A DNA stretch of 64,000 bases from positions 350,953 through 414,952 of the forward strand of contig CAVPIY010000011.1 of the NCBI GenBank assembly GCA_963705125.1, written 5' to 3'. Both the position numbers and the translations under genes were made by a program. How positions within the stretch are numbered: the first letter of the stretch is position 1; each line of letters starts with the position of its first letter. The notes below the pieces were generated by a model. It had not been told where the DNA came from and did not search any database. It saw only the letters and a list, made by a program, of their open reading frames with translations. Below are positions 1,385 to 56,277 of this stretch, piece after piece. Source of the stretch: an uncultured Bacteroidales bacterium (GTDB taxonomy: Bacteria; Bacteroidota; Bacteroidia; Bacteroidales; UBA10428).

Positions 1385-1599
1385 GTCATTGCGAGGGAGC
1401 AAAGCGACCGAAGTGATCCGTCATTGCGAGGGAGCAAAGCGACCGAAGTGATCCGTCATTGCGAGGGAGCAAAGCGACCGAAGTGATCCGTCATTGCGAG
1501 GGAGCAAAGCGACCGAAGTGATCCGTCATTGCGAGGGAGCAAAGCGACCGAAGCAATCTGTTTCTGATTGGCAGATTGCTTCGCTACGCTCGCAATGAC
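1385..1599 (+). repeat. Family-1 nested-palindrome repeat array (5 x 35 bp, closing into a complete 75-bp hairpin element)
   Basis: GTCATTGCGAGGGAGCAAAGCGACCGAAGTGATCC units start at 1385, 1420, 1455, 1490 and 1525. The last unit continues GAAGCAATCTG-tttctgattgg-CAGATTGCTTC-gctacg-CTCGCAATGAC. The array lies between convergent gene ends. Confidence 0.9.
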
Positions 1600-1607
1600 G
1601 GAAGTTA

Positions 1608-4600
1608 TTATTTGCCCAATGCCTCAATGCTTCTGGCCACTGCTTCACGGGCCATATAAATCGCATCCGGATCTTTCAGGATTTTTGTAGAGTATCTCCC
1701 CATGGCACATGGGATATTGACCAGTTCAAGTGCCTGCTGAAGCGCATCTCTGGCTGTTTTTAAAGCAGGATTTCCGGGATCAGACTTCTCAATCAGATGG
1801 CCAAGAAGTGTGAGATACTCATAATCTTCGGCTCCCTCCCTAACCTGCTTCAGACGTATCGATCCTATCAATCCATCTTCCCCGATAGGCTTTCCCGGAT
1901 AAATTACATATCCGTCACCATTCGGATATCTTTTCCAGGATTCTTCACCTGGAGCCTGACTTTCATAAATATAGCTGTGCCATCCATATTTATAAGGATT
2001 ATAAGTAAGCCAGTTTACACCCCAGAACTCATATGCTTCCGCTCCATATTTATAACCAAACCAGGGTAGCAAACGCTCCACAGCCATATATGGCGTTTCC
2101 GTACAGAAATTACCATCTGTTGTGTACCAGATTCGGCCGCCGGAACGAATAATATGCTGCAGATCTTCTGCCGTTACATAATTACCATAATCTCCTTCAC
2201 CGTTAAAACCCAGCCCCCATACATCAATATAGCCTTGCCATTCAGGTCTGTACCACCAGGTGCTCACATAGACCGGAATTTTCGGGTCTACCTCATGAAC
2301 CATATCACAAAGAGCTTTCATCTGAATATTGATGTTATTGCTCCTGCCATTGTTATTATCTGCTTCATGGGGTTCGTCTGACAGGTAAAGAATGTATCTG
2401 TCAGCCCATCCCTTTTCTTTCAGATGATCCCAGAACGTCTTAAGTACAAGCTGGTAAGCTTTTTTATATTCGGGACGCAGTCTGCTCCTGTCAGCATCTT
2501 TATAGGGATATTCACCCGGATATGGTTTCTCTTTAAATTTTTCAGAAGGAGGGAAGGCCCACCCGAAAAGATAAAAAATGTCAACAGGAAGGTATGCAAA
2601 CGGATTCTTGAGCTCATCAAAATAGATTGCCGCAGCCTTGTCATATTCAGTAAAATCAATAGTAACCCTCCCTTCAGTGTAATTTACTTTAGGAACCGGA
2701 TTTATCTCTCCTGAACTGATCCGGTGTTTTGCCATGAATGACAGATACATATTCCGCAAATCGTTCTCAGGCAGATCATTCCGCACCAGATCAGGCATCC
2801 TGTGAACTGATCTGTAATCGTAAAGAGCCCCGAAGGAATTCCTGTCAGGCAGTGTGAATTTCCAGACATGAACCGTCCAGGGAATTTCTTTTACAAGTGA
2901 ATCACTGTGGAAGATTTTTATCTTACCTGCATAGTCTCCACTCACTGTTCCCTCAGGTACAGCCACGTCAATCCAGATTGGCTGTGTTGTATGTGCTTTT
3001 AAATCAAAAACTTTTGCAGGCAGGAGTGGATCAGGCCAAAACCCGCTCCATCCGTCGCTGCCAATTGGCTCTGCCGGAAATTTCAGATACCAGAAAGGGA
3101 CCTTCCTTTCATAGTAATTTGAAGGGTAATCAATGGGTACATATCCAACCAGACTCACAGATACCTGGTCAAGCATATGCCCTGCTGAATTGACAGGCGG
3201 AGTAACTTCAACTCTCATTCCGGTGTAATCCCGCGGGCTTCTGAGGGCTATTTGCAAAGGTTCTGACTCATTTTTTGCAGCGGAGATTCGCAGAGCCCCA
3301 ATCTGGGATGGAGGAAGATCCTCATGAAACACCTTTACGACCGGATTTACCGGCCATACCGTTAGTTCCTGCAGTTTATCTGCAGCTCTCTGATCAAAAA
3401 ACATACTTCCCGCATATCCTTCAATAACCTCCATCATCAAGATCCCGTTGCACGATGCTGTTCCGGATTCTGCTCCTGATAAGGCAAGGCTCAACAAGGC
3501 TGAATATGCCTTCTCCGGTGCCCGGAAAATACCAGATATAAATGCCCGGTCACGCGTACCTGTGATCTTATCGCTAACAACCCTGCCATTTATTGTGGAA
3601 TCCTTGTCTCCATGAAATCTGATAACAATAGAAATCCCATCTGATATATCTGAACATTTCACCATTGCCCCGAACATATATGTCTTCCCGGACTCAATTG
3701 TTATATCCTGAGTCAATCCGGTCTTATTTATTTCTCCGCTTGCCGGCAGACCGGGAAACAAATTTCTTTTATCGTTGCACAAGTCGCTGAATTCTTTCTG
3801 GCGATCTGTAACATCTTTTTCCTTTCTGTCAAAATAGGCATACGTGGTTTGCTCAGTGCCAGCTGCAACAGGACTTTCAAGCAGCAGGGCATTCTCAAAA
3901 CGGAAATAAGGTCCGTTTCCCTTATTTCCCAGCTGCATCAGGGCATGCTGAATATCTTCATTGTGAAGACGCAGATAAACCTGCTCCATTTTCACATATA
4001 CAGGCAAAGTCTCATTGTTTTTTCTGAAGTTGAAGACTTTAACGGGTACACGGATATTCCATTTTTCGTCACCGGGCCATACTTCATTTCTGCCTTTTTC
4101 AGTTAAGGAGACAGACTCAGAAGTTTCAATTTCAAAGTTCAGCTTTCCTTCCTTTTGCAGAACGGATTGTTTTTCATCCTTGCTTCCATATCTCTTTTCT
4201 TCCAACACTGCTCCCATAGGCCATGCTGCCTTATTGTTGTAATAGATGTAACAGGTCTCAGACTTTCCGGCTTTTAATGAAACAGGTATTATGAACTCGC
4301 AGTTATCGGGAATAGCTCCTTCAGTCACAAGTCCTGCGTCCGGTGATGTGATTCTCCACAATAATTCTGTTCCACCGGAATCGACCAGCCTCAAACCCGT
4401 TGCATCTTCTCCTGCCAGATCAAGGAGACCTTTGCCTTTTCCGATTTTCATCATTACAGTTGAACCGGCAACATCGCGGTTTGAGGAGTTTGTGACTTCA
4501 ACCGGGATACGGGAATGCCAATAGCCCATGTTCGACAGGTACAGGGGATAATGCCATTTATCCGTTGCCTGAGCAACGGTATCAAATTCTTCTGGTACAA

Positions 4601-4640
4601 AGCCCAAAACTATGATAAATAGTAAAATTTTCGTTTTCAC
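1608..4640 (-). CDS. Secreted DUF4091 / GH123-like glycoside-hydrolase-domain protein (1010 aa)
   Basis: Signal peptide. C-terminal block WYTTDGNF...GDGYVIYPG...GSIRLKQVREGAEDYEYL is shared with 19659-21470, 46493-48241 and 51600-54509. GTG start overlaps the upstream TGA (GTGA at 4637-4640). Confidence 0.65.
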   Translation of the reverse strand: MKTKILLFIIVLGFVPEEFDTVAQATDKWHYPLYLSNMGYWHSRIPVEVTNSSNRDVAGSTVMMKIGKGKGLLDLAGEDATGLRLVDSGGTELLWRITSPDAGLVTEGAIPDNCEFIIPVSLKAGKSETCYIYYNNKAAWPMGAVLEEKRYGSKDEKQSVLQKEGKLNFEIETSESVSLTEKGRNEVWPGDEKWNIRVPVKVFNFRKNNETLPVYVKMEQVYLRLHNEDIQHALMQLGNKGNGPYFRFENALLLESPVAAGTEQTTYAYFDRKEKDVTDRQKEFSDLCNDKRNLFPGLPASGEINKTGLTQDITIESGKTYMFGAMVKCSDISDGISIVIRFHGDKDSTINGRVVSDKITGTRDRAFISGIFRAPEKAYSALLSLALSGAESGTASCNGILMMEVIEGYAGSMFFDQRAADKLQELTVWPVNPVVKVFHEDLPPSQIGALRISAAKNESEPLQIALRSPRDYTGMRVEVTPPVNSAGHMLDQVSVSLVGYVPIDYPSNYYERKVPFWYLKFPAEPIGSDGWSGFWPDPLLPAKVFDLKAHTTQPIWIDVAVPEGTVSGDYAGKIKIFHSDSLVKEIPWTVHVWKFTLPDRNSFGALYDYRSVHRMPDLVRNDLPENDLRNMYLSFMAKHRISSGEINPVPKVNYTEGRVTIDFTEYDKAAAIYFDELKNPFAYLPVDIFYLFGWAFPPSEKFKEKPYPGEYPYKDADRSRLRPEYKKAYQLVLKTFWDHLKEKGWADRYILYLSDEPHEADNNNGRSNNINIQMKALCDMVHEVDPKIPVYVSTWWYRPEWQGYIDVWGLGFNGEGDYGNYVTAEDLQHIIRSGGRIWYTTDGNFCTETPYMAVERLLPWFGYKYGAEAYEFWGVNWLTYNPYKYGWHSYIYESQAPGEESWKRYPNGDGYVIYPGKPIGEDGLIGSIRLKQVREGAEDYEYLTLLGHLIEKSDPGNPALKTARDALQQALELVNIPCAMGRYSTKILKDPDAIYMAREAVARSIEALGK

Positions 4641-6814
4641 AGATTTTCAAACCATTTTTCAATTTTTCCAATATACATTTCCTCTGCCTGGATCATCCAG
4701 TCCAGGTTTTCAGTCTGGCTGGCGAAATGGAAATACCGGTCGGGGACATAATTGGCCGGATAGGTCACAAACCGGGTCTTGCCATATACCTGCTTAAGGT
4801 TCTCCCAAGCCAGCTGAAAACCCCGTACAGCCAGCTTTACCTGGTCAATTCCTGCTTTTTGTTGTCCCTTGTCAGCATTGTCACATTGCTTAAGTGCAAG
4901 CAATAAACGGGGTGCAGTGATCTGCAGATCATACAGTGCCATAGAAAGTTCCCAGTAATACCGGTTCCTTTTTGATGCGTCATACAATTCCTGCAAGCGC
5001 AGAGACAGGGCCTTGTAGTTGTCTGTTTCAACCCGTGCTTTTTCCAGGCGGTCATTATATTTCCGCGTCCAGGTACCGGGTGAATTCAGATCAGGCAGCC
5101 CGATAAGTTTGGTTGTATAATCAAACTGCACCTTCTCCTGATCCGCCAGGGGAGGAAGCCAGTGTTCGAGCCTTGAAAAGCTCTGCAACGCATTGTCTTC
5201 ATCCAGGAGGCTTCCCTTTTTAAAGAAGGCCTCATACCAAAAGATCGAACCCCTCCGGAGCTGTTCATTAAAACTTAGAAAGTCCGGTAACGATAAAGCG
5301 AATTCCCTCTGCAACCAGGCTTTATCATATTCTTCCAGGGTGCGTCCGTTTGGGGACCAGCCGTACTCAGCCGATGCAATAAATCCGCGCCAGTAATTCT
5401 CCATGTGGGGCGACTTATCATCCCAGGCAGTGCAGAGCATGCCGCTGATATTTTTTTCAGCGGCCAGCTGCAGAAAGCTTTGTATGGTTATGATACCGTA
5501 TGAGGCCTGACCCTTGTCTCTCTCATCAGCATGAAATAACATGCCTCCTTCTGTATTTGTGGCAGTAGCACCCATGGCTTTCAACCCCCGGCTTTTATAC
5601 CAATCCAGTGCGAGAATATTTCCGGGTTGTCTGGCCATGGTATAATTCCAACGCATGTAAACGCAGTTTTTAGGGAAACCCTCCAGCAGGTTGTCGAGTT
5701 TGGGTGTACCCTCCGCCCAGCGTTTGGCTGCTTCTGTTGCAGTAACATCGTCACTGTATGTAGTTTCGTAAACTCCGGCTTCTTTCAGGGGCATGTCATC
5801 CCAGAAAATGGGTATGCGGTCATTTTCTGCAGCAAATTCACATACTCTTTTTAACCAGTACAGGCTCAGACTCAGCATACCTTCTTTATCAGCCATTGGC
5901 TTGCAGCGGGGGCACATTCCGATATTGCCGATCTCATCTCCCCCGATATGCAGGTACTTTGAACCAGGGGTGGCTTCAATGGCATCCCGGTACAGATCGA
6001 ATAAAACCTGGTACGTTCCCTCATGCAGCGGACAGAAAGCCCATTTGTTCCAGGAAAGTTCGCGCAAATGAGCATATTGCTGGTGTTTGAGAATAAAGGT
6101 GGCATGTCCCAGTCCCTGGACCAGGGGAGTAATCTCGATGTGCCGTTCGCGTGCATAACGCGTCAGGGCAGCCATCTCATCCATGCTGATTGCCTGAGGG
6201 GCTCCGACCAGGGGCTGACGTTGAAACCTAAGCTTATCCTCATACTCGAATACCACGGCATTGATTTTATACCTTGCAAGCCTGTCAATGCTTTCGTAAT
6301 AATAATGCATGTGGTCGAGGTGGTGCTTGACGTCAAACTGAACGGCACGGTATGAAAGCGCAGGATAATCCGTTATTTTGCAGGCAGGGACCGGCTTATT
6401 AAAATCACTTGCGTCTTCCATGAGTTGTTCAAGCGTCTGGCAACCATAGAACAGACCAGCTTCCGCCTTCGCGGTGATTTCTGCCTTATCCGCGCCAATG
6501 GTAAGGATATATCCCTCTTCCGAAGGAAGAACAGCTGCTTTGTCCAGGATCAGGGTCAGCCTGCCGCTGTTTCCGGCCTTCCCGATTGGCAGTCGTGAAA
6601 GATATTTTCCCATGACCGGGCATGAAAAGTCACCTTGCAATACCAACTGTTGCAGCTTACCCGGCACAAGTCCGGATCCCTTTAACAGTATGACATTTTT
6701 TGGCTGAGGGATGACGGTAAAGGGAGAAGGCAGGTTTTCAGTTGAAAAGCTTGGTTCTGACAGGATAGATGTCAATAAAACGGCAAACAGCAAGGAATGA
6801 ATTTTTGGTTTCAT
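4637..6814 (-). CDS. GH20-type beta-N-acetylhexosaminidase
   Basis: Signal peptide. N-terminal GH20b-like region (FTVIPQPKNV). HIGGDE catalytic motif in a TIM-barrel-length domain. Confidence 0.8.
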   Translation of the reverse strand: MKPKIHSLLFAVLLTSILSEPSFSTENLPSPFTVIPQPKNVILLKGSGLVPGKLQQLVLQGDFSCPVMGKYLSRLPIGKAGNSGRLTLILDKAAVLPSEEGYILTIGADKAEITAKAEAGLFYGCQTLEQLMEDASDFNKPVPACKITDYPALSYRAVQFDVKHHLDHMHYYYESIDRLARYKINAVVFEYEDKLRFQRQPLVGAPQAISMDEMAALTRYARERHIEITPLVQGLGHATFILKHQQYAHLRELSWNKWAFCPLHEGTYQVLFDLYRDAIEATPGSKYLHIGGDEIGNIGMCPRCKPMADKEGMLSLSLYWLKRVCEFAAENDRIPIFWDDMPLKEAGVYETTYSDDVTATEAAKRWAEGTPKLDNLLEGFPKNCVYMRWNYTMARQPGNILALDWYKSRGLKAMGATATNTEGGMLFHADERDKGQASYGIITIQSFLQLAAEKNISGMLCTAWDDKSPHMENYWRGFIASAEYGWSPNGRTLEEYDKAWLQREFALSLPDFLSFNEQLRRGSIFWYEAFFKKGSLLDEDNALQSFSRLEHWLPPLADQEKVQFDYTTKLIGLPDLNSPGTWTRKYNDRLEKARVETDNYKALSLRLQELYDASKRNRYYWELSMALYDLQITAPRLLLALKQCDNADKGQQKAGIDQVKLAVRGFQLAWENLKQVYGKTRFVTYPANYVPDRYFHFASQTENLDWMIQAEEMYIGKIEKWFENL

Positions 6815-6846
6815 ATGGGTGTAATTAATGTATTAATCTATATATC

Positions 6847-6967: not shown

Positions 6968-6969
6968 GC

Positions 6970-9481: not shown

Positions 9482-9527
9482 GATTAACTTTTTTCGAATG
9501 ATTATTATTAAGTAGTATCAATAACTC

Positions 9528-9565
9528 TAAGTACTTTAAGTACTCCAAGTACTCTAAGTACTTAG
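9528..9565. repeat. Family-4 9-bp tandem repeat (TAAGTACTY x4; AGTACT cores 9 bp apart)
   Basis: taagtactt taagtactc caagtactc taagtactt ag. The repeat overlaps the last codons and stop of 9554..10966. Confidence 0.85.
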
Positions 9566-16356: not shown

Positions 16357-16401
16357 AAGTGCCTTAAGTACTTAAAGTGCCTAAAGTGTCTAAAGTACTT
16401 G
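16357..16401. repeat. Family-4 9-bp tandem repeat (5 units, AAGTRCYT variants)
   Basis: AAGT cores at 16357, 16366, 16375, 16384 and 16393. The repeat begins 2 nt after the stop of 14184..16355 and supplies the stop of 16390..16602. Confidence 0.8.
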
Positions 16402-16996: not shown

Positions 16997-17045
16997 CAAG
17001 TACTTTAAGTATTCTAAGTACTCTAATTAGTTAAGGCACTTTAAT
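16997..17045. repeat. Family-4 9-bp tandem repeat (3 good units plus degenerate units)
   Basis: ccaagtact ttaagtatt ctaagtact ctaattagt taaggcact tta. The repeat overlaps the stop of 17031..18392. Confidence 0.7.
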
Positions 17046-18392: not shown

Positions 18393-18422
18393 ATTTATAC
18401 TTGTATAAACCAATCTCAACTT

Positions 18423-18449
18423 TAAGTACTCTAAGTACTTTAAGTACTT
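18423..18449. repeat. Family-4 9-bp tandem repeat (3 units)
   Basis: taagtactc taagtactt taagtactt. Lies between the stop of 18440..19486 and the start of 17031..18392. Confidence 0.8.
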
Positions 18450-21554: not shown

Positions 21555-21639
21555 GTCATTGCGAAGGACCCGATAGTTATCGGGGGACTGAAGCAATCTA
21601 CTGCAAATGAAAAGATTGCTTCGCTACGCTTACAATGAC
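21555..21639 (+). repeat. Family-1 nested-palindrome element, solitary degenerate copy
   Basis: GTCATTGCGAAGgaCCCGATAgtTATCGGGggactGAAGCAATCTactgcaaatgaaaAGATTGCTTCgctacgCTTACAATGAC. Confidence 0.8.
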
Positions 21640-32628: not shown

Positions 32629-32657
32629 AACAGGAGTTAGATCCAAAAAGTCCATCC

Positions 32658-32961
32658 GTCACGGCGAGGGAGCGAAGCGACCGAAGCGTCATTGCGAGCG
32701 CAGCGAAGCGAGTCAACGTCATTGCGAGGGAGCGAAGCGACCGAAGCGTCATTGCGAGCGCAGCGAAGCGAGTCAACGTCATTGCGAGGGAGCGAAGCGA
32801 CCGAAGCAATCTGCATCTGGTTGGCAGATTGCTTCGTCGTGTTGTGCGTCATTGCGAGGGAGCGAAGCGACCGAAGCAATCTGCATCTGGTTGGCAGATT
32901 GCTTCGTCGGCATGTAATATTATATTAAAAAAAGTCATTCTGCTCGCCTCCTCGCAATGAC
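32658..32961 (+). repeat. Family-1 repeat array (alternating 30-bp variants, then two hairpin elements)
   Basis: Cores at 32658 (degenerate), 32688, 32718, 32748, 32778 and 32848. Closes with CCTCCTCGCAATGAC at 32961. Confidence 0.9.
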
Positions 32962-32971: not shown

Positions 32972-33488
32972 GTCATTGCGAGGAGACATGATACTGGTCT
33001 CTGCCTTGCAAAATGAAATTGTCGACGAAGCAATCTATTTGATTTATACATATTTTTTCGATACATTAGACATATTGAAAAATAGTTAACGGGTATTGTT
33101 ATTTACATGCAAAGAGGTGGTTGTGTTTATATTATGACCAATAATAACAACACAGTTCTTTATACTGGAGTTACAAGCAATCTGAGTAAAAGAGTTTCAG
33201 AACATAAGGAACGATTACATCCTGAATCCTTTACAGCTAAATACAATGTTGTCAAACTTGTTTATTATGAAGGATTTGATCATATCGAAGAAGCTATTGC
33301 ACGGGAAAAGCAGATTAAGGGAGGATCCCGAAAGGATAAGATCCGATTGATAATACAGATGAATCCGGAATGGGAGGATTTATATGACAGAATATGTGGA
33401 TTTTGATGATGTGCAAGGATTCAGATTGCTTCTTCAGCGCAATGCGTTTTGCTAAACTGAATAATACTATTCGCTTCCTCGCAATGAC
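32972..33488 (+). mobile_element. Putative autonomous family-1 unit: nested-palindrome ends enclosing a GIY-YIG gene (copy 1)
   Basis: Left end GTCATTGCGAGGAGAC (32972) with GAAGCAATCT at 33027-33036. Right side CAGATTGCTTC (33422-33432) with CTTCCTCGCAATGAC ending at 33488. Homologous over its whole length to 55763-56277. Confidence 0.45.
33107..33406 (+). CDS. Stand-alone GIY-YIG nuclease-domain protein (COG2827/YhbQ-like), 99 aa
   Basis: GCVYIMTN..VLYTGVTSNLSKRVSEH...YYE...EEAIAREKQIKG matches the GIY-YIG motif order. Confidence 0.8.
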   Translation: MQRGGCVYIMTNNNNTVLYTGVTSNLSKRVSEHKERLHPESFTAKYNVVKLVYYEGFDHIEEAIAREKQIKGGSRKDKIRLIIQMNPEWEDLYDRICGF

Positions 33489-33856
33489 GCCTGATTTGCT
33501 CGCCTCCTCGCAATGAAGTATCATTAAATCATCATACCTGCCCGGCCTGCAGGAAGGTCATTAAATAAACAAATGCCGAATTATGAATATTAGTATTAGA
33601 AATTTAAATATTAGTATTATATCCGAATAATCCTTTTCAGTATGTTTAATTACGATTTTATTCTGATTTTTATCATGTAATTTAAAAATATTTAAATCTG
33701 ATTTACATTCTTTTATACTTAAATTTTTCGCGGATAATAATAGTATGATTTACTATTCTGGTTATGTTATAATTTATCCGGAATAAAAATATTGTTGTTA
33801 GACTTTTTTTTAATTATTTTTAGTGGAGTTTTCTTAACCCTAAACCTTGAAAACAA

Positions 33857-38558: not shown

Positions 38559-38580
38559 AATGAATAGTTAATTCCATTTA

Positions 38581-38999
38581 TATCTGGTTGGCAGATTGCT
38601 TCGTCGTGTTACGCGTCATTGCGAGGGAGCGAAGCGACCGAAGCAATCTGTCCACCCCGTCATTGCGAGTCCCGTTCACGGGACGAAGCAATCTGTCCAC
38701 CCCGTCATTGCGAGTCCCGTTTACGGGACGAAGCAATCTGTCCACCCCGTCATTGCGAGTCCCGTTCACGGGACGAAGCAATCTGTCCACCCCGTCATTG
38801 CGAGTCCCGTTCACGGGACGAAGCAATCTGTCCACCCCGTCATTGCGAGTCCCGTTCACGGGACGAAGCAATCTGTCCACCTCCGTCATTGCGAGTCCCG
38901 TTCACGGGACGAAGCAATCTGTATCAGGATAACAGATTGCTTCGTCTGCATGTAGTATTATTCTATATAGATTCATTCTGCCTGCCTCCTCGCAATGAC
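38581..38999 (+). repeat. Family-1 repeat array (1 x 44 bp plus 6 x 45 bp units with a private GC hairpin, closing into a complete element)
   Basis: Cores at 38615, 38659, 38704, 38749, 38794, 38839 and 38885. Unit is GTCATTGCGA-GTCCCG-ttca-CGGGAC-GAAGCAATCTGTCCACCCC. Ends CCTCCTCGCAATGAC at 38999. Confidence 0.9.
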
Positions 39000-41900
39000 G
39001 TTTAATGCCAACTTATAAATCCTCACCGAATCATTATTCAGTGCAAAAACCAGGATGTCTTTTCCGATTGCCGACCTGATATGGGCAATGTCCCTTACTT
39101 CGCCATTTACATGTAACCCACTTTGAATATCGTTCATCACAGCAAAATCCCCTTTCCCGTTCCCGGTAAGTAACAATCCTTTATTGGCATCATATTCTCC
39201 GAATCTGAGCCGGGTACCAAAGAAATTGCCTGCCAGGATCAAATCCACATTGCCATCCTGATTGTAGTCCCCGGCCTGTATGGCATAAACTGGAGAGAAC
39301 TGGGTGACAGGGGGAAGAGGAGAAAGGGAGAACTGATCGTTCCCCTTGTTTTCAAGATAACAACTGGCAAAGACAAAGGCTTTGAGAACCAGAGCGTCCT
39401 TTAATTCTTCCGGTGAAAACATGTCAGTAATCGTCTGACTGGCATAGGACTCATAGGTAGGATATTTCTTTTCAAGGATGGGCAATTGTCGCTGCAGATC
39501 ATCTTTTGGGTAAATTGGGTAGCATTTTCCCTGGATGTAAGAGCACATCACCGCATCGATCGATCCATTGTTATCAAAATCTTTGGCATACAGGGTGACC
39601 GGTTCAGTAACGGATGTCTTTAAGCGGGAATTCAAGCCCAGGTTCCCGACAACGTAGTCCTGATCACCATCGTTGTCAAAATCTGCTGCTGAAATGGAAT
39701 TCCACCAGCCTGCTGAATTTTTCAGGCCACAATTGTCAGTGATTTCAGTTAGACGCTTGCCGGTATGCATAAAAATCCGTATGCTCATCCATTCCCCCAC
39801 GATAATAATATCCAGCTGCCTATCTCCGTTGATATCGGTCCATAACGCATCCGTTACCATACCCGGATTCATCAGGGACTTATTATAGTTCTCAGTTACA
39901 TCTTTGAAATATCCCTTACCATTATTTTCCAGCAGATAGCTTCTCGGTATCAAGGGGTAAGATCCAGGCACCAGCCTGCCCCCAACAAAAAGATCCAGGT
40001 CACCGTCATTATCTACATCGCCTGCCCTGACACAAGAACCGCTGGTCAGCATCACGGGAAGCTGATCAGCTGATTTTGTAAAAAGCCCCTTCCCGTTATT
40101 GAGGTATAATCGATCCTGCAGTTCAGGGGCATCCTTCGGAAATTCATTTCCTCCGCTGACTACATATAAATCCGGATCAGTATCCCCGTCAGCATCAAAA
40201 AATACGGCTCCTATATCCTCACAACCTTTGTCTTCTTCAAAGCAAGACTGTATCTGCAAGCCAAAAGATCCGTCCTTTTTCTGAATATACAGGCTGCCCG
40301 GACTATCCCTGGCACCACTGAAATACAAATCCTCCAGACCGTCTTTGTTTATGTCTCCTTTAGCAATGTGTGGTCCCTGGGTGGAAAGAAGATGATGCAA
40401 AAGAATTTGTTTCCTGAAATCGACATATTCATTTTCAACATGCTTATAGTCAAGTATCTTACTATTCAAAGGAACAAAAACGGGTCGATATGATTGGACT
40501 GTTACCTCTTTGAGCGGATGTGCATTCTTTTGATGAAGAATAAGGGTTTGATCTGCAACGACCTTTTTAAATACCTCTTCAAGCAAATCAGGCCAGATCA
40601 CCTTCAGTGAATCAACTTGGGTTGATTTGCCCAGGCCAAAAATCAGCTCGTGATTCACGGAGGACATGTATCCCCGTGAAGGCATGAATTCCTGTATATA
40701 AATCTGATCTTTGCAAAAAACTTCCACCTTAGCGCCGATTCCACCCCGGTTCAAACCTGATCCATCGAACCTGATTTTTAAGAAGTGATTCAGGTTGCGT
40801 TTGCTTGCGTTATTCCGGTAAATAAAGGCATAAGAATTGACATTGTTGGTTACTATATCCATATCCCCGTCATCATCCAGATCGGCATAGGCAGCTCCGT
40901 TGGAAAATGACAGGATCTCTTCTCCCCACTCCTCAGTCACATTGGTAAAAGTCAGGTCTCCGTTATTCCGGTAAATATAGTTTTTCAATACAGTGGGGGG
41001 GATTTTTTCGATCAGCTCCAATTTGGTCATGGTATGTCTGCCGGTACGCCTCCTGTCTTCCTCCAATGCAACAAGCCTGATAAAATCCAGGTTGGTATTG
41101 TTCTTCCAGAATCCGGTGGTAACATACAGATCCTTGTATCCGTCATTGTCAAAGTCACAGAAGAGAGGCCCCCAGCTCCAGTTGGTGGCGAAAATCCCCG
41201 AGTATTGCCCGATCTCTGTAAAATATTCTCCGAGGTTATTCACATGCAACATGTTACGGGTAACCTGGCCCTGAAACACCTTATTCTTAAGCATAAAATA
41301 ATTACCCGGATTATCCGGCCGGGCTACCAGCTTCTGTTCATAATTATCCTCCGGAAGCATGTCCGGGGTCATCAGATCAATGTACCCGTCATTGTTAAAG
41401 TCAGCCGCATCATTGCCCATGGATGCAAAAGGGGTATGTTCAAAAAAGGCATCCAGCTCATCCCTGAAAGTGCCGTCTTTTTGGTTGATATACAGACGGT
41501 CTTTCACAAAATAATCCTGGCAGACATAAATATCCGGCCAGTTGTCCTGGTTAAAATCGGCTATGGCCAGTCCCAGTCCGTAATACGTTGAACTGGGGAT
41601 CATTCCTGCTTCCCTGGAAACATTGACAAACCTCTCACCGGTGTTCTTGTACAATTGCTCCCCGAATCTTCTGCTGGTCCCGGTCATCATGCTCATCCGG
41701 TTTATCAGGGGCCCTTCAGCGATGTGATTCAGAACAAGCAGGTCAAGGTCACCGTCTTTATCATAATCAAAAAAAGCACTGTGTGTGGAATGAAAGGGAT
41801 CGTCGATACCATATTTTGCAGCACATTCTGTAAAAGTAAGGTCCCCTTCATTGATGAAGAGCTGATTTCTTCTTTTTTCGGGATTGCCTGAGGCAGCATG

Positions 41901-42296
41901 GCAAACATAGATGTCGAGAAATCCGTCTCCATTGATGTCCGCCATGATAACACCGGTATTCCACCTGTCTCCGCAGTTTACCCCAGCTTTATCCGTGATA
42001 TCCTCAAATCTGAATTTGCCCTTGTTCAGATACAGTTTGTTTCCAGTGAGGTTCCCACTAAAGAAGATTTCCGGCAAACCGTCATTGTTAAGATCACCAA
42101 CAGCCACCCCCCCTCCGTTATAGAAATAGGCATAGTCAAGCACATTGAATTTTTCACTGTCCTTGACCATATTTTTGAAATCGATCCCTGTTCTCAGGTG
42201 TGAGAGCGATGTGAATAGCTTGCCCTTATCCTGTTTACAGCAAGGAGAAATTAATATTATCAATAGAATAATATAACCAATTGGGATACGCTTCAT
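38973..42296 (-). CDS. VCBS/FG-GAP repeat plus ASPIC/UnbV-type lipoprotein, paralogue 2 (inverted)
   Basis: Lipoprotein signal (LISPCC). The same FG-GAP motif series and HFLKIRF...GIGAKVEVF module. The last 9 codons lie in the family-1 right arm. Confidence 0.8.
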   Translation of the reverse strand: MKRIPIGYIILLIILISPCCKQDKGKLFTSLSHLRTGIDFKNMVKDSEKFNVLDYAYFYNGGGVAVGDLNNDGLPEIFFSGNLTGNKLYLNKGKFRFEDITDKAGVNCGDRWNTGVIMADINGDGFLDIYVCHAASGNPEKRRNQLFINEGDLTFTECAAKYGIDDPFHSTHSAFFDYDKDGDLDLLVLNHIAEGPLINRMSMMTGTSRRFGEQLYKNTGERFVNVSREAGMIPSSTYYGLGLAIADFNQDNWPDIYVCQDYFVKDRLYINQKDGTFRDELDAFFEHTPFASMGNDAADFNNDGYIDLMTPDMLPEDNYEQKLVARPDNPGNYFMLKNKVFQGQVTRNMLHVNNLGEYFTEIGQYSGIFATNWSWGPLFCDFDNDGYKDLYVTTGFWKNNTNLDFIRLVALEEDRRRTGRHTMTKLELIEKIPPTVLKNYIYRNNGDLTFTNVTEEWGEEILSFSNGAAYADLDDDGDMDIVTNNVNSYAFIYRNNASKRNLNHFLKIRFDGSGLNRGGIGAKVEVFCKDQIYIQEFMPSRGYMSSVNHELIFGLGKSTQVDSLKVIWPDLLEEVFKKVVADQTLILHQKNAHPLKEVTVQSYRPVFVPLNSKILDYKHVENEYVDFRKQILLHHLLSTQGPHIAKGDINKDGLEDLYFSGARDSPGSLYIQKKDGSFGLQIQSCFEEDKGCEDIGAVFFDADGDTDPDLYVVSGGNEFPKDAPELQDRLYLNNGKGLFTKSADQLPVMLTSGSCVRAGDVDNDGDLDLFVGGRLVPGSYPLIPRSYLLENNGKGYFKDVTENYNKSLMNPGMVTDALWTDINGDRQLDIIIVGEWMSIRIFMHTGKRLTEITDNCGLKNSAGWWNSISAADFDNDGDQDYVVGNLGLNSRLKTSVTEPVTLYAKDFDNNGSIDAVMCSYIQGKCYPIYPKDDLQRQLPILEKKYPTYESYASQTITDMFSPEELKDALVLKAFVFASCYLENKGNDQFSLSPLPPVTQFSPVYAIQAGDYNQDGNVDLILAGNFFGTRLRFGEYDANKGLLLTGNGKGDFAVMNDIQSGLHVNGEVRDIAHIRSAIGKDILVFALNNDSVRIYKLALNVIARRQAE

Positions 42297-46252: not shown

Positions 46253-46281
46253 AACAGAAGTTAGATCCAAAAAGTCCATCC

Positions 46282-46446
46282 GTCATTGCGAGGGAGCGAA
46301 GCGACCGAAACGTCATTGCGAGGGAGCGAAGCGACCGAAACGTCATTGCGAGGGAGCGAAGCGACCGAAACGTCATTGCGAGGGAGCGAAGCGACCGAAA
46401 CAATCTGCCTCTGGATAGCAGATTGCTTCACTTCGCTCGCAATGGC
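46282..46446 (+). repeat. Family-1 repeat array (4 x 30 bp, closing into a 75-bp element)
   Basis: GTCATTGCGAGGGAGCGAAGCGACCGAAAC at 46282, 46312, 46342 and 46372. Then CAATCTGcctctggatagCAGATTGcttcacttcgCTCGCAATGGC. Confidence 0.9.
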
Positions 46447-51584: not shown

Positions 51585-51599
51585 ATAAACCATATCAAA

Positions 51600-54509
51600 A
51601 TGAAAGCCAATTATCGATTATTCAGGTTGTTGTTGTCAGTATCCTGTATATTGATGCTGCCATGTCAATTGAACCGGGCAGGGATCCAGCAGCCCATGCT
51701 GCAGATACCGGCCATCAAAACGCCTCCCGTCATTGACGGCAAGTTAAACGATGCTGCCTGGCAAAAAAGCGTCGAAATATCCGAATACATTATCTGGACA
51801 TTGGATACCTACGTTAAGGACTCCCTGGCCGCATGGATCTGTTATGATGACAAAAACCTGTACGTGGCCTTCCGCAATATAGACGCGGCTGCAGGTAAAC
51901 TTCAAAAATCCCCGGAAGGTAAGGATTCCTGGGATACCTTTCTGTGGGGGAGGAATTATAATATGGTCCAGGTTGGTTACCAGGGAGTGGATATCCAACT
52001 CATGGCCGATCCGAAAGGAACCCAGACCGACTATAAAAACGGTGATATCAGCTGGAACGGAAAATGGAAATATGCGGCTTCCGTAAACCTGAAAGACTGG
52101 ACAGCGGAATTCAGCATCCCGCTGAGCGATGCCGGACTTGAAGGGACGGCCGCCAATAAAGAAATCAGCATGGGCATTTCCAGAAGCTTCCCTTTAGGGG
52201 AATCATCGAATTGGGATGGCAAATGTTTACTTGCCGGTCCTGCTGTTGCAACCTATCAGTATGGCAGATGGCCTGAACCGGCCCCGGGTAAGAACTTTGT
52301 TCCCTTTGTTGCACAAAACTTTGGCACGGATAAGCTGAATGTAGTGTGTGAACTGGAACTGATCCCGCTGAATGACAAGCCTGAATTCATCCACCAGGAG
52401 GGTCAGGGACCATCTTCAGAACTGCAGCTTTATGTAAGCAAAGAACCTCTGCGCTTCACTTATTCCTTTTCAATACCGGCAGGCGGAACCCTGAATGAAA
52501 AGGTGCTATATGAATTACCCGATGAAGGCAGCTATTATGCCAACGCTACGATTAAATCGGCAGACGGATCGCTTATCCGGCGCAACAGTGATTTCTGGTT
52601 CACGATCGAGCCCAACCGGAAAAAAATCAAAGCCCTCAAAGAAAGACTCGGGGAAAGTCAGGCTTCCATGACGCGAATATCAAATCCCGTTGCTGACCGT
52701 TTGCGTAATGAAGCCGGTGCTGTTGAAAAGGACCTGCAAAAGCTGGAATCTTTTGCTGAAATTGCATGGAAGTCCGGACAATGGGATGAGCTCACCTCCC
52801 AGGTGAATAAGATGGATGGTCAGATTTCCAGACTTCTTCATAAGGTGAAATGGACAGCCTTGCATAAGTGGCAGGCTGAAGATGAATTTGCGATCGCATG
52901 CACCCATTCCGTGGTCAAACTCCGGAGAGATGCTATATTCCCTTTCCCCATAAGTGAGAAGATAGATTTATCTCAGGCACGGAATGAATATGAATCCGTG
53001 CAGTTGGCCATACTGCCTTTTGGCAAAGACCTGAACCAGGTTACCTTGGAAGCAAGCGATTTAAAAGGCAGCGATGGAAATACTATTCCAAAAAGCAATA
53101 TTGAAATGTCGCTGGTGGATTATAATAAAATTGACTGGCAGGCCTCCTATGTGACTGCTTATAAGGGTTGGCATCCCGATCCCTTAATTCCGTTGAAATC
53201 TGCCATAAACATCAGTGGAAGTGAGGTATGCCGCCCGGTGTGGATCACGGTGTATGCACCTCCGGGAACTGCTGCCGGTGAATATACCGGTACGATCACG
53301 GTGAGTGCAGCCGGAACAAAGAAACTAACCGCTTTAGTAAAGTGCAGAGTGTGGGACTTTGAACTGCCGGTTTCGGGCCACCTGGTAACCCATACCTGGG
53401 ATGATTTAGACATGTTGTGTGATTTTTACAACCTGGAAGAGTATCCTGTTGACTGGTACCAGAAATTTTGCGGGTTGCTGTTAAAGAACAGAATGAATCC
53501 GGGCTTTGCCGGTGTAAATTACGTGGATCAGTTGCCGGATAAATCCGGTACTTATAATTTCAGCAAGGTGGAGAAAGTGCTGGATTATTGCATTGACCGC
53601 GGATTGAACCGATTTTCGATTATACAGATGAAGAAGGGGGCCTATACACCCGAAGAGGCCGAAATTGCCTATAAATTTACGGCAGCCTATGCCAGGTTTT
53701 TGCGTGAAAAGGGCTGGCTTGACAAAGCATTGGTTGAACTGTGGGATGAACCTACTGACCTGGAGTGGCCCGGAATCAAGGAACGGGCAGAACGGCTGAA
53801 ACAGATCGATCCGGGATTGCGCCTGCAATTGTTTGCCGAGGGCGGACCTTACAACTTCTGGGATAAGAGCACGGACAAATATGGTTTGAATAATCTGGTG
53901 GATATCTGGGCACCGATAAATCCGATTGAATCTCCCGAAATCCAGGCCAAGGGAGGAGAGATCTGGGCGTACTTCTGCACACTGACCCGGGAAAGTGCTC
54001 CGAATTTCTTCATCGACTGCCCGGCCATTTACCAGCGAAGCATTGCCTGGTATTGCTGGATGTATGGTCTGGATGGATTTGAGCACTGGAGCACGACTTA
54101 CTTCTGGAGAAATACACATGCCGGAAAACCCATGGATCAAAAATGGCCGAATGTACCCTGGGATTCACGCACATATCACTATTTTAATGGAGAAGGGCAG
54201 CTGATTTACCCGGGCCCGGATGGAAATCCATATTCATCCATTCGTCTTGAAAACTTCCGCGACGGGATGGAAGATTACGAATATCTATACAGGCTGAAAG
54301 AGCTCCTTTCAGAATATGACAAGGACACAAAGGATCCGGCAATAAATGCATACAGACAACTTCTGAATGCAGAAGACTATCTGTTGTACAAGTATCCGAA
54401 AAATATCAAGGCCACATTGGAAAATACATTGCGATACCCCGATCAGCCCGAGTTGTTTATAGAGTCACGCAATAAGATAGCCAGGGCAATTGAGGATTTA
54501 CAAAAATGA
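51600..54509 (+). CDS. CBM9-like module plus DUF4091 / GH123-like domain protein (969 aa)
   Basis: Signal peptide. IDGKLNDAAWQKS...NLYVAFRN N-terminal module. C-terminal SSIRLENFRDGMEDYEYL block. Confidence 0.65.
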   Translation: MKANYRLFRLLLSVSCILMLPCQLNRAGIQQPMLQIPAIKTPPVIDGKLNDAAWQKSVEISEYIIWTLDTYVKDSLAAWICYDDKNLYVAFRNIDAAAGKLQKSPEGKDSWDTFLWGRNYNMVQVGYQGVDIQLMADPKGTQTDYKNGDISWNGKWKYAASVNLKDWTAEFSIPLSDAGLEGTAANKEISMGISRSFPLGESSNWDGKCLLAGPAVATYQYGRWPEPAPGKNFVPFVAQNFGTDKLNVVCELELIPLNDKPEFIHQEGQGPSSELQLYVSKEPLRFTYSFSIPAGGTLNEKVLYELPDEGSYYANATIKSADGSLIRRNSDFWFTIEPNRKKIKALKERLGESQASMTRISNPVADRLRNEAGAVEKDLQKLESFAEIAWKSGQWDELTSQVNKMDGQISRLLHKVKWTALHKWQAEDEFAIACTHSVVKLRRDAIFPFPISEKIDLSQARNEYESVQLAILPFGKDLNQVTLEASDLKGSDGNTIPKSNIEMSLVDYNKIDWQASYVTAYKGWHPDPLIPLKSAINISGSEVCRPVWITVYAPPGTAAGEYTGTITVSAAGTKKLTALVKCRVWDFELPVSGHLVTHTWDDLDMLCDFYNLEEYPVDWYQKFCGLLLKNRMNPGFAGVNYVDQLPDKSGTYNFSKVEKVLDYCIDRGLNRFSIIQMKKGAYTPEEAEIAYKFTAAYARFLREKGWLDKALVELWDEPTDLEWPGIKERAERLKQIDPGLRLQLFAEGGPYNFWDKSTDKYGLNNLVDIWAPINPIESPEIQAKGGEIWAYFCTLTRESAPNFFIDCPAIYQRSIAWYCWMYGLDGFEHWSTTYFWRNTHAGKPMDQKWPNVPWDSRTYHYFNGEGQLIYPGPDGNPYSSIRLENFRDGMEDYEYLYRLKELLSEYDKDTKDPAINAYRQLLNAEDYLLYKYPKNIKATLENTLRYPDQPELFIESRNKIARAIEDLQK

Positions 54510-54510
54510 C

Positions 54511-55279
54511 ATGAATTACGGAAGAACAAAAGTAGTTCTCTGCAAGGATGCAGCGGAACTCGGGAAGCAAGCAGCTTCTGATGTAGGCAACAAGATCAGG
54601 GAACTGCTCGGTCATCAGGAAGAAATCAGAATCATCTTTGCGGCAGGTGAAAGTCAAATTACTTTCCTTGATGCGCTGGCAAAGGAAAAGAACATCGACT
54701 GGAAGAGAATTATCTGCTTCAACATGGACGATTTCTATGATACAAAGATACCTGAGGAGTATACATGCGGATCATCAAACTAAAAGGCAATTATACGACA
54801 AAATCAATCCCAGGCGGATATATCTTGTGAGATATAATGCCCCTGACCCGTATGAAGAAGCCAGACGTTTTGAAGCGGTTATGCGCGACGAAGGAGAATT
54901 TGACATTCTTTGTCAGGGAATAGGCACTTCAGGCCATTTGGCCCTTAACGAACCCTTTGATACCGATTTTAAAGATCAGACCTGGGTCAGGGTCGTGAAC
55001 CTGGCGGAGCAGTCCATTATGCAGCTGAGGGAAGATCCTAATTTCAAAGCGCTCGGCTATATCCCTGCAAAAGGCATTACTATGACCATTCCGGCCTTAC
55101 TATCTGCAAAGAACATATACACCATGGTTCCTTTGGCGCTAAAGCGGCCCATACTTGAAAAGCTTTTCGTTGTGAAAACACCCACGACGGAACTTCCCGC
55201 ATCGGTTTTGCTGCAGGTTGATAGTACCCTTTATCTTGACAGAGATTCATGCCCGCAGGGGTTGATTTCTAAATTCTGA
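54511..55279 (+). pseudogene. NagB/6-phosphogluconolactonase-family (glucosamine-6-phosphate deaminase-like) gene with a +1 frameshift
   Basis: The N-terminal half (frame 1, ..IIFAAGESQ..FNMDDF..) stops at 54781-54783. The C-terminal half (frame 2, ..ILCQGIGTSGHLALNEP..) continues to 55279. Removing one base in GGATCATCAA (54770-54778) restores CGYQTKRQLYDKI. Confidence 0.7.
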
Positions 55280-55286
55280 GACCATC

Positions 55287-55762
55287 GTCATCGCGAGGAG
55301 ACGTTTCCCCGTCATTGCGAGGAGACGTTTCCCCGTCATTGCGAGGAGACGGGATAATTCTCTCTGCATTGTAAATTGATAACGTCGACGAAGCAATCTT
55401 TATCTGGTTAACAGATTGCTTCGTCAGCGTATAGTATTTTGCCTTACTGAATAATATAACTCGCTTCCTCGCAATGACGATTCTCTCCGTCATTGCGAGG
55501 AGACGTTTCCCCGTCATTGCGAGGAGACGTTTCCCCGTCATCGCGAGGAGACGGGATAATTCTCTCTGCATTGTAAATTGATAACGTCGACGAAGCAATC
55601 TTTATCTGGTTAACAGATTGCTTCGTCAGCGTAAAGTATTTTGCCCTACTGAATAATATAACTCGCTTCCTCGCAATGACGATTCTCTCCGTCATTGCGA
55701 GGAGACGTTTCCCCGTCATCGCGAGGAGACGTTTCCCCGTCATTGCGAGGAGACGTTTCCCC
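55287..55762 (+). repeat. Family-1 higher-order array: 24-bp left-arm stutter plus two 144-bp gene-less elements (202-bp period)
   Basis: Cores at 55287, 55311, 55335, 55489, 55513, 55537, 55691, 55715 and 55739. Gene-less elements at 55335-55478 and 55537-55680. Confidence 0.9.
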
Positions 55763-56277
55763 GTCATTGCGAGGAGACGGGATAATTCTCTCTGCATTGT
55801 AAATTGATAACGTCGACGAAGCAATCTGTTTGATTATTACATAATTTTTTATAAATTAGGCATATCGAAAAATCGTTATATGCAATCTTTAATTATATGC
55901 AAAGAGGTGGTTGTGTATACATTATGACCAATAAGAACAACACTGTTCTGTATACCGGCGTTACAAGCAATCTTAGTAAGCGGATTTCAGAACATATGGA
56001 ACGATTTCACCCTGAGTCATTTACAGCTAAATACAATGTTGTCAAACTTGTGTATTATGAAGGATTTGATCATATCGAAGAGGCTATAGCACGGGAAAAG
56101 CAGATAAAGGGAGGATCCCGAAATGATAAGATCGATTAATAACCCAAATGAATCCTGATTGGGAGGATTTGTATGACAGGATCTGTGGATTTTGATGCTG
56201 TTGGGTGATACAGATTGCTTCGTCAGCTTGTGGCAATTTGCTTAACTCAATAATTCTATTCGCTTCCTCGCAATGAC
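55763..56277 (+). mobile_element. Putative autonomous family-1 unit enclosing a (frameshifted) GIY-YIG gene (copy 2)
   Basis: GTCATTGCGAGGAGACGGG... at 55763, then GACGAAGCAATCT, the ORF, ACAGATTGCTTC, and CTTCCTCGCAATGAC ending at 56277. Confidence 0.45.
55897..56195 (+). pseudogene. GIY-YIG nuclease-domain gene with a 1-nt deletion near its 3' end
   Basis: 80 codons match 33107-33406. GATAAGATC-GATT replaces GATAAGATCCGATT, giving TAA at 56137-56139. NPDWEDLYDRICGF* is still readable in the -1 frame up to 56195. Confidence 0.7.

What the first reader, a model, noticed from the sequence alone, without database searches (positions are those of the whole stretch)
1385..56277. Strand-polar stutter of only the left arm, with a different period at every family-1 locus
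The core GTCAT(T/C)GCGAG is reiterated in tandem before each element closes. The arrays are 5 x 35 bp (1385-1559), alternating 30-bp variants (32658-32807), 1 x 44 plus 6 x 45 bp (38615-38929), 4 x 30 bp (46282-46401), and 2-3 x 24 bp (from 55287, 55489 and 55691). By my count there are 34 forward cores and about 11 reverse (right-arm) cores. All six loci and both GIY-YIG genes have the same orientation on the + strand. One-sided amplification and uniform polarity across 55 kb suggest a directional process, either replication-fork-linked or ssDNA-linked. This is comparable to the strand bias of IS200/IS605 and REP elements, and differs from symmetric unequal crossing-over. Six loci is a small sample.
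Basis: partly seen in the sequence, partly recalled or inferred. Interest (0 to 1): 0.6.

Follow-up and report, generated by a model that had tools for sequence, protein, structure and literature searches.

The report
Tandem arrays of Ssn target motifs
The "stuttered left arms" are real tandem copies of the front half of a hairpin DNA motif that belongs to a small single-strand-DNA nuclease family (Ssn, described in 2025), but their one-sidedness is a local quirk of this genome and not a replication-linked rule.

Summary
All five arrays sit at the stated coordinates with the stated periods, and I count about 33-34 forward and 10-11 reverse cores, all on the + strand.

The "family-1 element" is a convergent pair of Ssn-related motifs (SRM). 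Each motif is CGTC-ATTGC...GCAAT-C, the same layout as the Neisseria NTS. Two copies carry a 99-aa single-domain GIY-YIG gene between the motifs. Homologues of this protein in other genomes are flanked by the canonical NTS front half, GTCATTCCCGCG. This places the system in the Ssn/SRM family (Chenal 2025), as a motif class that the published search pattern misses.

The arrays are tandem copies of the motif's 5' half, or sometimes the whole motif, ending in one complete motif. In 45 of 81 homogeneous arrays from many phyla the periodic region starts within 2 nt of GTCATT (10% expected). This is close to where Ssn enzymes cut.

- Relative to the nuclease gene, both arms are amplified equally (109 vs 107 cores).
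- Arrays lie on both strands, interleaved, in complete chromosomes.
- Single elements here show no link to GC skew.

The same-strand pattern in this genome rests on about 5 independent events. Verdict: a new member of a known kind, of modest interest.

The parts
1385..1559 (+). Array 1: 5 x 35-bp units. Each unit is a whole type-A SRM whose 3' half is mutated (GAAGTGATC instead of GAAGCAATC). The last unit is the intact motif.
1525..1600 (.). Closing convergent SRM pair: + motif CGTCATTGCGAG..GAAGCAATCTG, an 11-nt loop, then the - motif CAGATTGCTTCG..CTCGCAATGACG. As ssDNA it folds into one long hairpin (-26.8 kcal/mol, z -7.2).
21555..21639 (.). Degenerate solo element with cores GTCATTGCGAA (+) and GTCATTGTAAG (-).
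32658..32807 (+). Array 2: five 30-bp half-motif units in two alternating variants (a 60-bp super-period).
32777..32909 (+). A 70-bp unit x 1.9: whole + motif, loop, inner box of the - motif, and spacer. The outer - core is missing from the first copy.
32972..33517 (+). Gene-bearing element: + SRM front half at 32972, GAAGCAATC at 33027, the ssn-like gene, CAGATTGCTTC at 33424, the - core at 33478, and a degenerate second - core at 33507.
33107..33406 (+). Intact 99-aa single-domain GIY-YIG (Ssn-like) gene.
   Evidence: PF01541, E 1.6e-17, residues 5-77
38580..38614 (+). Orphan loop plus inner - box plus spacer (ATCTGGTTGGCAGATTGCTTCGTCGTGTTACG). It is nearly identical to the 70-bp unit of locus 2.
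38615..38929 (+). Array 3: one type-A whole motif (44 bp) followed by six 45-bp whole type-B motifs. Each type-B unit is CGTC-ATTGC-GAG-TCCCG TTCA CGGGA-CGAA-GCAAT-CTG plus TCCACCC. As ssDNA each unit folds with CGTC unpaired (-9 kcal/mol, z -2.8).
38885..38999 (.). Closing pair of locus 3. The - core at 38989-38999 lies inside the last codons of the - strand ORF 38973-42296.
46282..46401 (+). Array 4: 4 x 30-bp half-motif units, 100% identical. This is a plain duplication with no filler, with the junction at CCGAAA|C.
46372..46446 (.). Closing pair of locus 4, with a degenerate - core (GCCATTGCGAG).
55287..55779 (+). Three 24-bp half-motif arrays of 3, 3 and 4 cores (unit CGTCATTGCGAGGAGACG plus TTTCCC). 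Each array heads one copy of a 202-bp tandem repeat of the whole gene-less pair.
55763..56306 (+). Second gene-bearing element, with the - core at 56267 and a degenerate second - core at 56296.
55897..56198 (+). Frameshifted ssn-like gene, 93% identical to the intact copy over residues 1-79. The remaining residues are in another frame.

Best explanation
What the elements are. Each 'family-1 element' is a convergent pair of Ssn-related motifs (SRM). One oriented hairpin motif, (C)GTC-ATTGC...GCAAT-C, lies on the + strand. A second copy lies on the - strand. In two copies a 99-aa single-domain GIY-YIG nuclease gene of the Ssn family sits between them.

What the arrays are. They are minisatellite-type local amplifications of that 5' module plus a few extra bases, or in loci 1 and 3 of the whole motif. 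Each array ends in one complete motif.

How the arrays most likely arise (inferred). A first duplication, or an adjacent second motif copy, arises right at the 5' edge of a motif. This is the position where Ssn enzymes nick ssDNA. Replication slippage or unequal exchange between the directly repeated cores then expands the unit. This gives near-identical units within a locus and a different period at each locus.

What the polarity means. The polarity is intrinsic to the oriented motif: arrays grow on the 5' side of a motif on that motif's own strand. It is not tied to the chromosome's replication direction or to one fixed arm of the element. That all arrays in this genome lie on one strand is a small-sample and local-history effect.

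Shown versus inferred. Shown: family membership by homology and architecture, the anchoring of arrays at the 5' edge, the equality of the two arms across loci, and the lack of a replichore or transcription rule. Inferred: slippage as the amplifier, and the Ssn nick as the seed.
For: - Protein: PF01541 only, 99 aa.
- Homologues in 66/301 Burkholderiales-order genomes. Those 56-62% identical are flanked by GTCATTGCGAG. Those 43-52% identical are flanked by the canonical NTS front half GTCATTCCCGCG (L201, L203, L204, L211, L217). Others are flanked by further GTCAT variants. This is protein/motif co-variation as described for Ssn/SRM (PMC11893778).
- Predicted ssDNA folds of the units leave CGTC unpaired and pair ATTGC with GCAAT followed by C, the same dot-bracket layout as the NTS control.
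- Gene architecture is motif -> gene <- motif.
- Arrays of 3 or more cores occur in at least 120 loci from many phyla.
- In 81 homogeneous arrays the periodic region starts 0-2 nt upstream of GTCATT in 45 cases, against 10% expected (p=2e-23). In 64/81 the last copy runs on into a 3' half.
- The same design, half motif plus short filler repeated n times and then a complete motif, is seen for other specificity classes, including the canonical NTS type (L203, L189, L216).
- Units within an array are 96-100% identical, while periods differ between loci.
- Arrays are found only in genomes with an ssn homologue: 3/83 vs 0/277, excluding seed genomes (p=0.012).
- In this genome 5 of 7 array loci lie in the 55 kb that holds the only two ssn copies (p=3e-6, or 3e-4 on a conservative count).
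Against: - No biochemical data exist for this enzyme or motif. The cut site is extrapolated from Neisseria and Wolbachia homologues.
- The motif does not match the published degenerate SRM pattern.
- Type-A hairpins are weak: -2.7 to -3.4 kcal/mol, no better than shuffled sequence.
- In most arrays the unit carries a tail of 2-32 nt, mostly 6-14 (the 'filler'), that is absent both upstream of the first unit and after the last core. Simple slippage does not create such a tail, so the first duplication event is not explained.
- 5'-edge anchoring would also follow from slippage between two independently inserted neighbouring motifs, with no nuclease nick involved.
- 7/7 same-strand arrays in this genome (nominal p=0.016) could still hide a weak local directional effect. 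A draft MAG with weak GC skew cannot exclude this.
Confidence: 0.6

Rival explanations
1. Replication-fork-linked polar amplification. Only the arm exposed on one template strand stutters, so array strand follows the replichore, as IS200/IS605 orientation does.
For: All 7 arrays of 3 or more cores in this genome are on the + strand of contigs C11 and C12, and both contigs have negative mean GC skew. Ssn enzymes act only on ssDNA.
Against: In complete chromosomes, arrays on the two strands are interleaved within 220 kb. Short elements in this genome are 34 forward to 27 reverse with no link to skew (p=0.29). The two arms are equal relative to the gene (109 vs 107). There are only about 5 independent events here (p about 0.06). 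GC skew in the two complete chromosomes was too noisy for a formal replichore test.
Confidence: 0.07
2. The arrays are relics of nested insertions. Elements repeatedly insert into the loop of a resident hairpin element, giving L L L ... R R R, and the matching right arms are later lost.
For: Nested forms with complementary spacers on the two arms exist (G040/L183; L094). At locus 3 a type-A unit precedes the type-B units.
Against: The window arrays are homogeneous (96-100% identical units, including filler). There are no complementary right-arm partners. Many units lack the motif's 3' half. Nesting would give heterogeneous units and mirrored arms.
Confidence: 0.1
3. The arrays are selected functional devices: multi-site ssDNA cleavage or decoy tracts that modulate recombination or transformation of neighbouring genes (as NTS clusters and NIME arrays do), or 3'-UTR RNA or terminator elements.
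For: All 7 arrays of this genome start 28-60 bp after the stop codon of a gene on the same strand. NTS clusters flank particular genes in Neisseria and lower transformation. NIME arrays are dynamic and associated with variable genes (PMC1797815).
Against: Across 120 loci there is no sense/antisense bias in co-directional gene contexts (29 vs 22, p=0.40; 21 vs 16, p=0.51). Half-motif units lack the 3' stem and the C that the Neisseria enzyme needs for binding. Locus 3 has its own canonical terminator upstream. There is no Rfam match.
Confidence: 0.15
4. Assembly artefact: short-read MAG assembly created or inflated the tandem copies.
For: The genome is a MAG (93.9% complete, 14 contigs). In a relative, arrays sit at contig ends (G049). 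Reads could not be checked.
Against: The same kind of array occurs inside long contigs and in complete long-read chromosomes of unrelated phyla. The window arrays are internal to a 927-kb contig and have unique flanks.
Confidence: 0.03

Closest known systems
Ssn nucleases with NTS / Ssn-related motifs (SRM), Chenal et al. 2025, Nat Commun 16:2388 (PMC11893778)
   Same: The nuclease is a single-domain GIY-YIG protein of about 95-100 aa. Its gene is bracketed by inverted copies of an oriented hairpin motif with a 5' (C)GTC tag, a stem that begins ATT and ends AAT, and a C right after the stem. Motif copies are dispersed in the dozens and are mostly intergenic. Protein and motif co-vary. Homologues of the window protein are flanked by the canonical NTS front half.
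   Different: The stem is ATTGC/GCAAT, with long and variable inserts in the loop, so the published degenerate pattern does not find it. The motifs are arranged as convergent pairs that form one long palindrome, and the gene can sit in its loop. Tandem arrays of the 5' half are not mentioned in the paper's main text (the word 'tandem' occurs 0 times). The host is an uncultured bacterium and no biochemistry has been done.
Neisserial intergenic mosaic elements (NIME): arrays of dRS3/NTS separated by RS elements (Bentley et al. 2007, PMC1797815)
   Same: These are arrays of direct copies of the same motif superfamily, in intergenic positions next to genes. Their repeat number is dynamic between strains.
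   Different: NIME spacers (RS elements) are 19-214 bp and belong to over 100 different families. Here the units are 18-46 bp, nearly identical within an array, and often contain only the 5' half of the motif.
REP/BIME elements with RAYT (REPtrons) and IS200/IS605
   Same: Hairpin motifs are recognised as ssDNA in a strand-specific way. A small nuclease gene is flanked by its own repeats. Gene-less copies are dispersed and clustered.
   Different: Those enzymes are HUH/Y1 transposases that form covalent intermediates. The enzyme here is a GIY-YIG hydrolytic nuclease. The replication-strand bias known for IS200/IS605 was looked for here and not found.
Free-standing and intron-borne GIY-YIG homing endonucleases (I-TevI, Seg proteins)
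   Same: They share the GIY-YIG catalytic domain, and the gene behaves as part of a selfish or mobile unit.
   Different: Homing enzymes carry an extra DNA-binding domain and cut dsDNA. This protein is the bare 99-aa domain.

Membership tests
Ssn / SRM system (Chenal 2025) | Single-domain GIY-YIG protein of about 94-100 aa | tested here: met
   PF01541 covers residues 5-77 of 99 aa with no other domain. There is no closer NCBIfam model or PDB relative.
Ssn / SRM system (Chenal 2025) | Homology to proteins whose genes are flanked by NTS-type motifs | tested here: met
   Homologues with E 1e-21 to 1e-24 and 45-52% identity are flanked by GTCATTCCCGCG (L201, L203, L204, L211, L217). L203 ends in a full NTS, GTCATTCCCGcgaaggcgggaatccag.
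Ssn / SRM system (Chenal 2025) | [quoted passage not shown] | not testable with these tools
   No CDD library was available.
Ssn / SRM system (Chenal 2025) | Gene flanked on both sides by the motif | tested here: met
   This holds for both window copies. In 52 loci there are 109 upstream sense cores and 107 downstream antisense cores.
Ssn / SRM system (Chenal 2025) | Oriented motif: unpaired 5' (C)GTC tag, hairpin stem, C immediately 3' of the stem | tested here: met
   The sequence is CGTC-ATTGC...GCAAT-C. DNA folds give '....(((((..)))))....', as for the NTS control. Type-B units are stable (-9 kcal/mol) and type-A units are weak.
Ssn / SRM system (Chenal 2025) | Match to the published degenerate SRM search pattern HGTCWYN(0-2)YYVSBRHN(0-5)WNVSBRGN(0-2)RNCYNB | tested here: not met
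   The pattern matches both NTS controls but none of four variants of this motif, and it has 0 hits in the window. It is a search heuristic, not a functional definition.
Ssn / SRM system (Chenal 2025) | Binds and cuts only ssDNA, only one strand, a few nt 5' of the motif | not testable with these tools
   This needs biochemistry. Indirect support: arrays are anchored 0-2 nt 5' of the core in 45/81 cases.
IS200/IS605 and REP-RAYT | HUH/Y1 transposase | tested here: not met
   The only gene inside the elements is GIY-YIG.
IS200/IS605 and REP-RAYT | Orientation bias with respect to the replication direction | tested here: not met
   There is no link to GC skew in the window's own genome (p=0.29). 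Strands are interleaved in complete chromosomes. Skew in those chromosomes was too noisy for a formal replichore test.
NIME arrays | Motif copies separated by heterogeneous RS spacer families of 19-214 bp | tested here: not met
   Units are 24-45 bp and 96-100% identical within an array.
GIY-YIG homing endonucleases | Additional DNA-binding domain and a dsDNA target | tested here: not met
   The protein is 99 aa with the catalytic domain only. The TIGR01453 score of 23.6 is far below its cut-off of 56.

The most novel reading that the evidence does not exclude
The half-motif arrays are footprints of how Ssn-related motifs multiply. An Ssn nick just 5' of a motif in ssDNA would seed a short duplication or insertion that starts at the cut. 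The regular design 'n x (5' half + short filler) + one complete motif' is seen across specificity classes and phyla. On this reading it would be the first sequence-level trace of the unknown propagation mechanism of this repeat family.
Probability: 0.25. Interest if true: 0.6.

Novelty: new member of a known kind. Interest (0 to 1): 0.3.

Why it matters
The finding places a conspicuous repeat family of an uncultured bacterium, and of many other phyla, into the recently described Ssn/SRM system. It shows that the published search pattern misses a major motif class, GTCATTGCGAG. It also documents a regularity not mentioned in the paper's main text: tandem arrays of the motif's 5' half, anchored at the edge where the nuclease is expected to cut. 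That regularity gives a concrete and testable handle on how these repeats spread. The replication-polarity idea, which would have been the more surprising result, is not supported.

Tried and rejected
1. Structured RNA or ribozyme. Rfam gave no match at gathering thresholds, and only chance-level hits in a sensitive search. The boxes are conserved in sequence on both sides of the helices, which fits protein or ssDNA recognition.

2. Replichore test. GC skew of the window's own contigs is weak, and element orientation is unlinked to it. I sampled skew in two complete Dehalococcoidia chromosomes and located dnaA. The skew was too noisy to define replichores, so only the interleaving argument is used.

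3. Transcription-sense bias. A first crude count suggested one (27 vs 13). It vanished after masking ORFs created by the arrays themselves (29 vs 22 and 21 vs 16).

4. Pyrimidine-rich filler as a general rule. It is striking in some genomes, but overall filler composition is only mildly C-rich (C 34%, T 23%).

5. Strain comparison and empty sites. No relative shares orthologous DNA at locus 3.

7. Literature search by sequence found nothing relevant. The paper's supplements are not held.

8. Coding potential of the arrays is rejected: periods of 35, 34, 28 and 25 bp are not multiples of 3.

Full report
**Observation**

Tandem Repeats Finder reports:
- 1381-1553: 35 bp x 4.9.
- 32657-32807: 30-bp units, or 60 bp as two alternating variants.
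- 38639-38922: 45 bp x 6.3.
- 46281-46401: 30 bp x 4.
- 55286-55779: three 24-bp arrays nested in a 202-bp repeat.

The exact core GTCATYGCGAG occurs 30 times on + and 9 times on -, against 0.02 expected. With degenerate copies there are 33-34 forward and 10-11 reverse cores. Both GIY-YIG ORFs are on the + strand. One is intact at 99 aa and one is frameshifted.

Both gene-bearing copies also carry a second, degenerate right-arm core 29 bp further out (33507 and 56296). So 'only the left arm' is slightly too strong.

**Anatomy**

Every element reads: CGTCATTGCGAG, a variable insert, CGAAGCAATCTG, a loop, CAGATTGCTTCG, a variable insert, then CTCGCAATGACG. About 85-90 such elements are scattered over the 5.55-Mb draft genome. 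The only two copies of the nuclease gene are both in this window.

**Identification**

A note from an earlier session pointed to the Ssn/NTS literature. I read the paper, Chenal et al. 2025, PMC11893778. What it reports:
- SsnA is a 94-aa single-domain GIY-YIG protein.
- It binds the hairpin motif NTS (CGTCATTCCCGCGMAVGCGGGAATCYRG) only as ssDNA and only on one strand.
- It cuts a few nt upstream of the motif.
- The GTC before the stem is needed for cutting, and the C after the stem is needed for binding.
- Genes of the family are typically bracketed by their own 'Ssn-related motifs' (SRM).

The left half of the window's element has exactly this layout: CGTC-ATTGC...GCAAT-C. The right half is the same motif on the other strand. 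Predicted ssDNA folds leave CGTC unpaired and pair ATTGC with GCAAT, as in the NTS control. The 45-nt type-B unit is a stable hairpin and the type-A units are weak. The whole pair can alternatively fold into one long hairpin.

The direct test was as follows. In 301 genomes of the order that contains Rhodocyclus (Burkholderiales in GTDB), 66 have homologues of the window protein.
- The closest homologues (56-62% identity) are flanked by GTCATTGCGAG.
- Those at 43-52% identity are flanked by the canonical NTS front half GTCATTCCCGCG.
- Others are flanked by further GTCAT variants.

So the window's system is a member of the Ssn/SRM family with its own motif class. The published degenerate SRM pattern does not detect this class.

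**What the arrays are**

- In loci 1 and 3 each unit is a whole motif.
- In loci 2, 4 and 5 each unit is the 5' half plus a few bases.
- Every array ends in one complete motif.

The same thing is found far beyond this genome. The loci come from Firmicutes, Chloroflexi, Proteobacteria, Spirochaetes, Cyanobacteria, CPR, Bacteroidota and others.

In 81 homogeneous arrays the periods range from 18 to 46 bp.
- The periodic region begins 0-2 nt upstream of GTCATT in 45 cases, against 10% expected for a random phase (p=2e-23).
- In 64 of them the last copy runs on into a 3' half.
- Most units carry a tail of 2-32 nt, mostly 6-14, that is absent upstream of the first unit and after the last core. The origin of this filler is unexplained.

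Other specificity classes show the same design. One example is a canonical NTS-type array, (GTCATTCCCG + 8 nt) x 4 followed by a full NTS (L203).

**Polarity**

At the level of the boxes, an array on the right arm is simply the mirror image of one on the left arm. So 'left' only has meaning relative to the gene, the strand, or an intrinsic asymmetry of the element.

- Relative to the nuclease gene. In 52 loci there are 109 sense cores upstream and 107 antisense cores downstream within 600 bp. Long arrays occur on either side. A sister genome has arrays on both arms of one element, with complementary spacers.
- Relative to replication. In two complete chromosomes, arrays on the two strands are interleaved over short distances: 11 + vs 16 -, and 9 + vs 7 -. 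In the window's own genome, short elements are 34 forward and 27 reverse, with no link to local GC skew (p=0.29).
- Relative to transcription. All seven arrays of this genome follow a same-strand gene's stop codon. Across 120 loci, however, there is no sense bias.
- Independence. The 7/7 same-strand arrays here are not seven independent events. Loci 2 and 4 follow paralogous gene ends, and loci 2 and 3 share a 70-bp composite segment. With about five independent events, p is about 0.06.

**Link to the nuclease**

Arrays of this core were found only in genomes that have an ssn homologue: 3/83 vs 0/277, excluding the seed genomes (p=0.012). Within this genome, 5 of 7 array loci lie in the 55 kb that holds both ssn copies (p between 3e-6 and 3e-4).

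Together with the 5'-edge anchoring, this fits, but does not prove, a model with two steps:
1. A nick by the nuclease just upstream of a motif seeds the first duplication.
2. Ordinary slippage or unequal exchange between the repeated cores then expands it.

Slippage between two independently inserted neighbouring motifs would give the same anchoring without any nick.

**Comparison with known systems**

- Closest: the Ssn/SRM system itself.
- For arrays: the Neisseria NIME arrays of dRS3/NTS, which are long and strain-variable but have heterogeneous spacers (PMC1797815).
- REP/RAYT and IS200/IS605 are functional analogies only, since the enzyme here is not an HUH transposase.

**Verdict and limits**

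This is a real and well-described feature, and a new member of a known kind. The half-motif arrays and the unrecognised motif class are modestly new details. The replication-polarity interpretation is not supported.

Limits of this work:
- No close relatives share the locus for an empty-site comparison.
- The genome is a MAG.
- No biochemistry exists for this enzyme or motif.

Noticed in passing
window 38973-38999: The minus-strand motif core (38989-38999) lies inside the last codons of the minus-strand ORF 38973-42296. The repeat therefore seems to supply that gene's C-terminal residues and sits just before its stop codon.
   Followed up: no
window 33478-33517 and 56267-56306: Both gene-bearing elements have a second, degenerate right-arm core exactly 29 bp beyond the first (TTCATTGCGAG and CTAATTGCGAG on the minus strand). 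Similar 2-copy right-arm duplicates occur at other elements of the genome (C11:245095, C11:284776, C8:874004).
   Followed up: partly
window 32813-32885 vs 38580-38650: A roughly 70-bp composite segment (loop, inner minus box, spacer TCGTGTT(G/A)(T/C)G, then a whole type-A motif) is shared almost identically between loci 2 and 3. This suggests that composite pieces, not single motifs, are copied between nearby loci.
   Followed up: partly
genome contigs C7:131500, C10:202687, C12:783542 (outside the window): Larger elements of 190-200 bp have different inserts between the outer and inner boxes, and each insert forms its own stem (for example GGACTCC..GGAGTCC on the left and GCCAC..GTGG on the right). 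This gives a four-way-junction-like fold with apparent covariation.
   Followed up: no
L203 (Burkholderiales-order genome G184), downstream of its ssn homologue: A canonical NTS-type half-motif array, (GTCATTCCCG + 8 nt pyrimidine-rich filler) x 4, followed by a complete NTS. The half-motif stutter is therefore not specific to the GTCATTGCGAG class.
   Followed up: partly
G001 and G003 (complete Dehalococcoidia chromosomes; L061, L065, L075, L080): There are dozens of arrays per chromosome. The 22-27-bp units consist of the core plus a C/T-rich spacer that differs slightly from unit to unit. These arrays look older or differently maintained than the homogeneous ones in the window.
   Followed up: no
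window 55287-55779: Two adjacent 24-bp units can pair with each other through the quasi-palindrome GGAGACGTTTCC (-8 kcal/mol, z -3.0). The 'filler' TTTCCC may therefore be partly complementary to the start of the unit.
   Followed up: no
window 9524-9562, 16357-16398, 16998-17026, 18419-18449: Short 9-bp tandem arrays (TAAGTACTY-like) at several gene boundaries, unrelated to the Ssn motifs.
   Followed up: no
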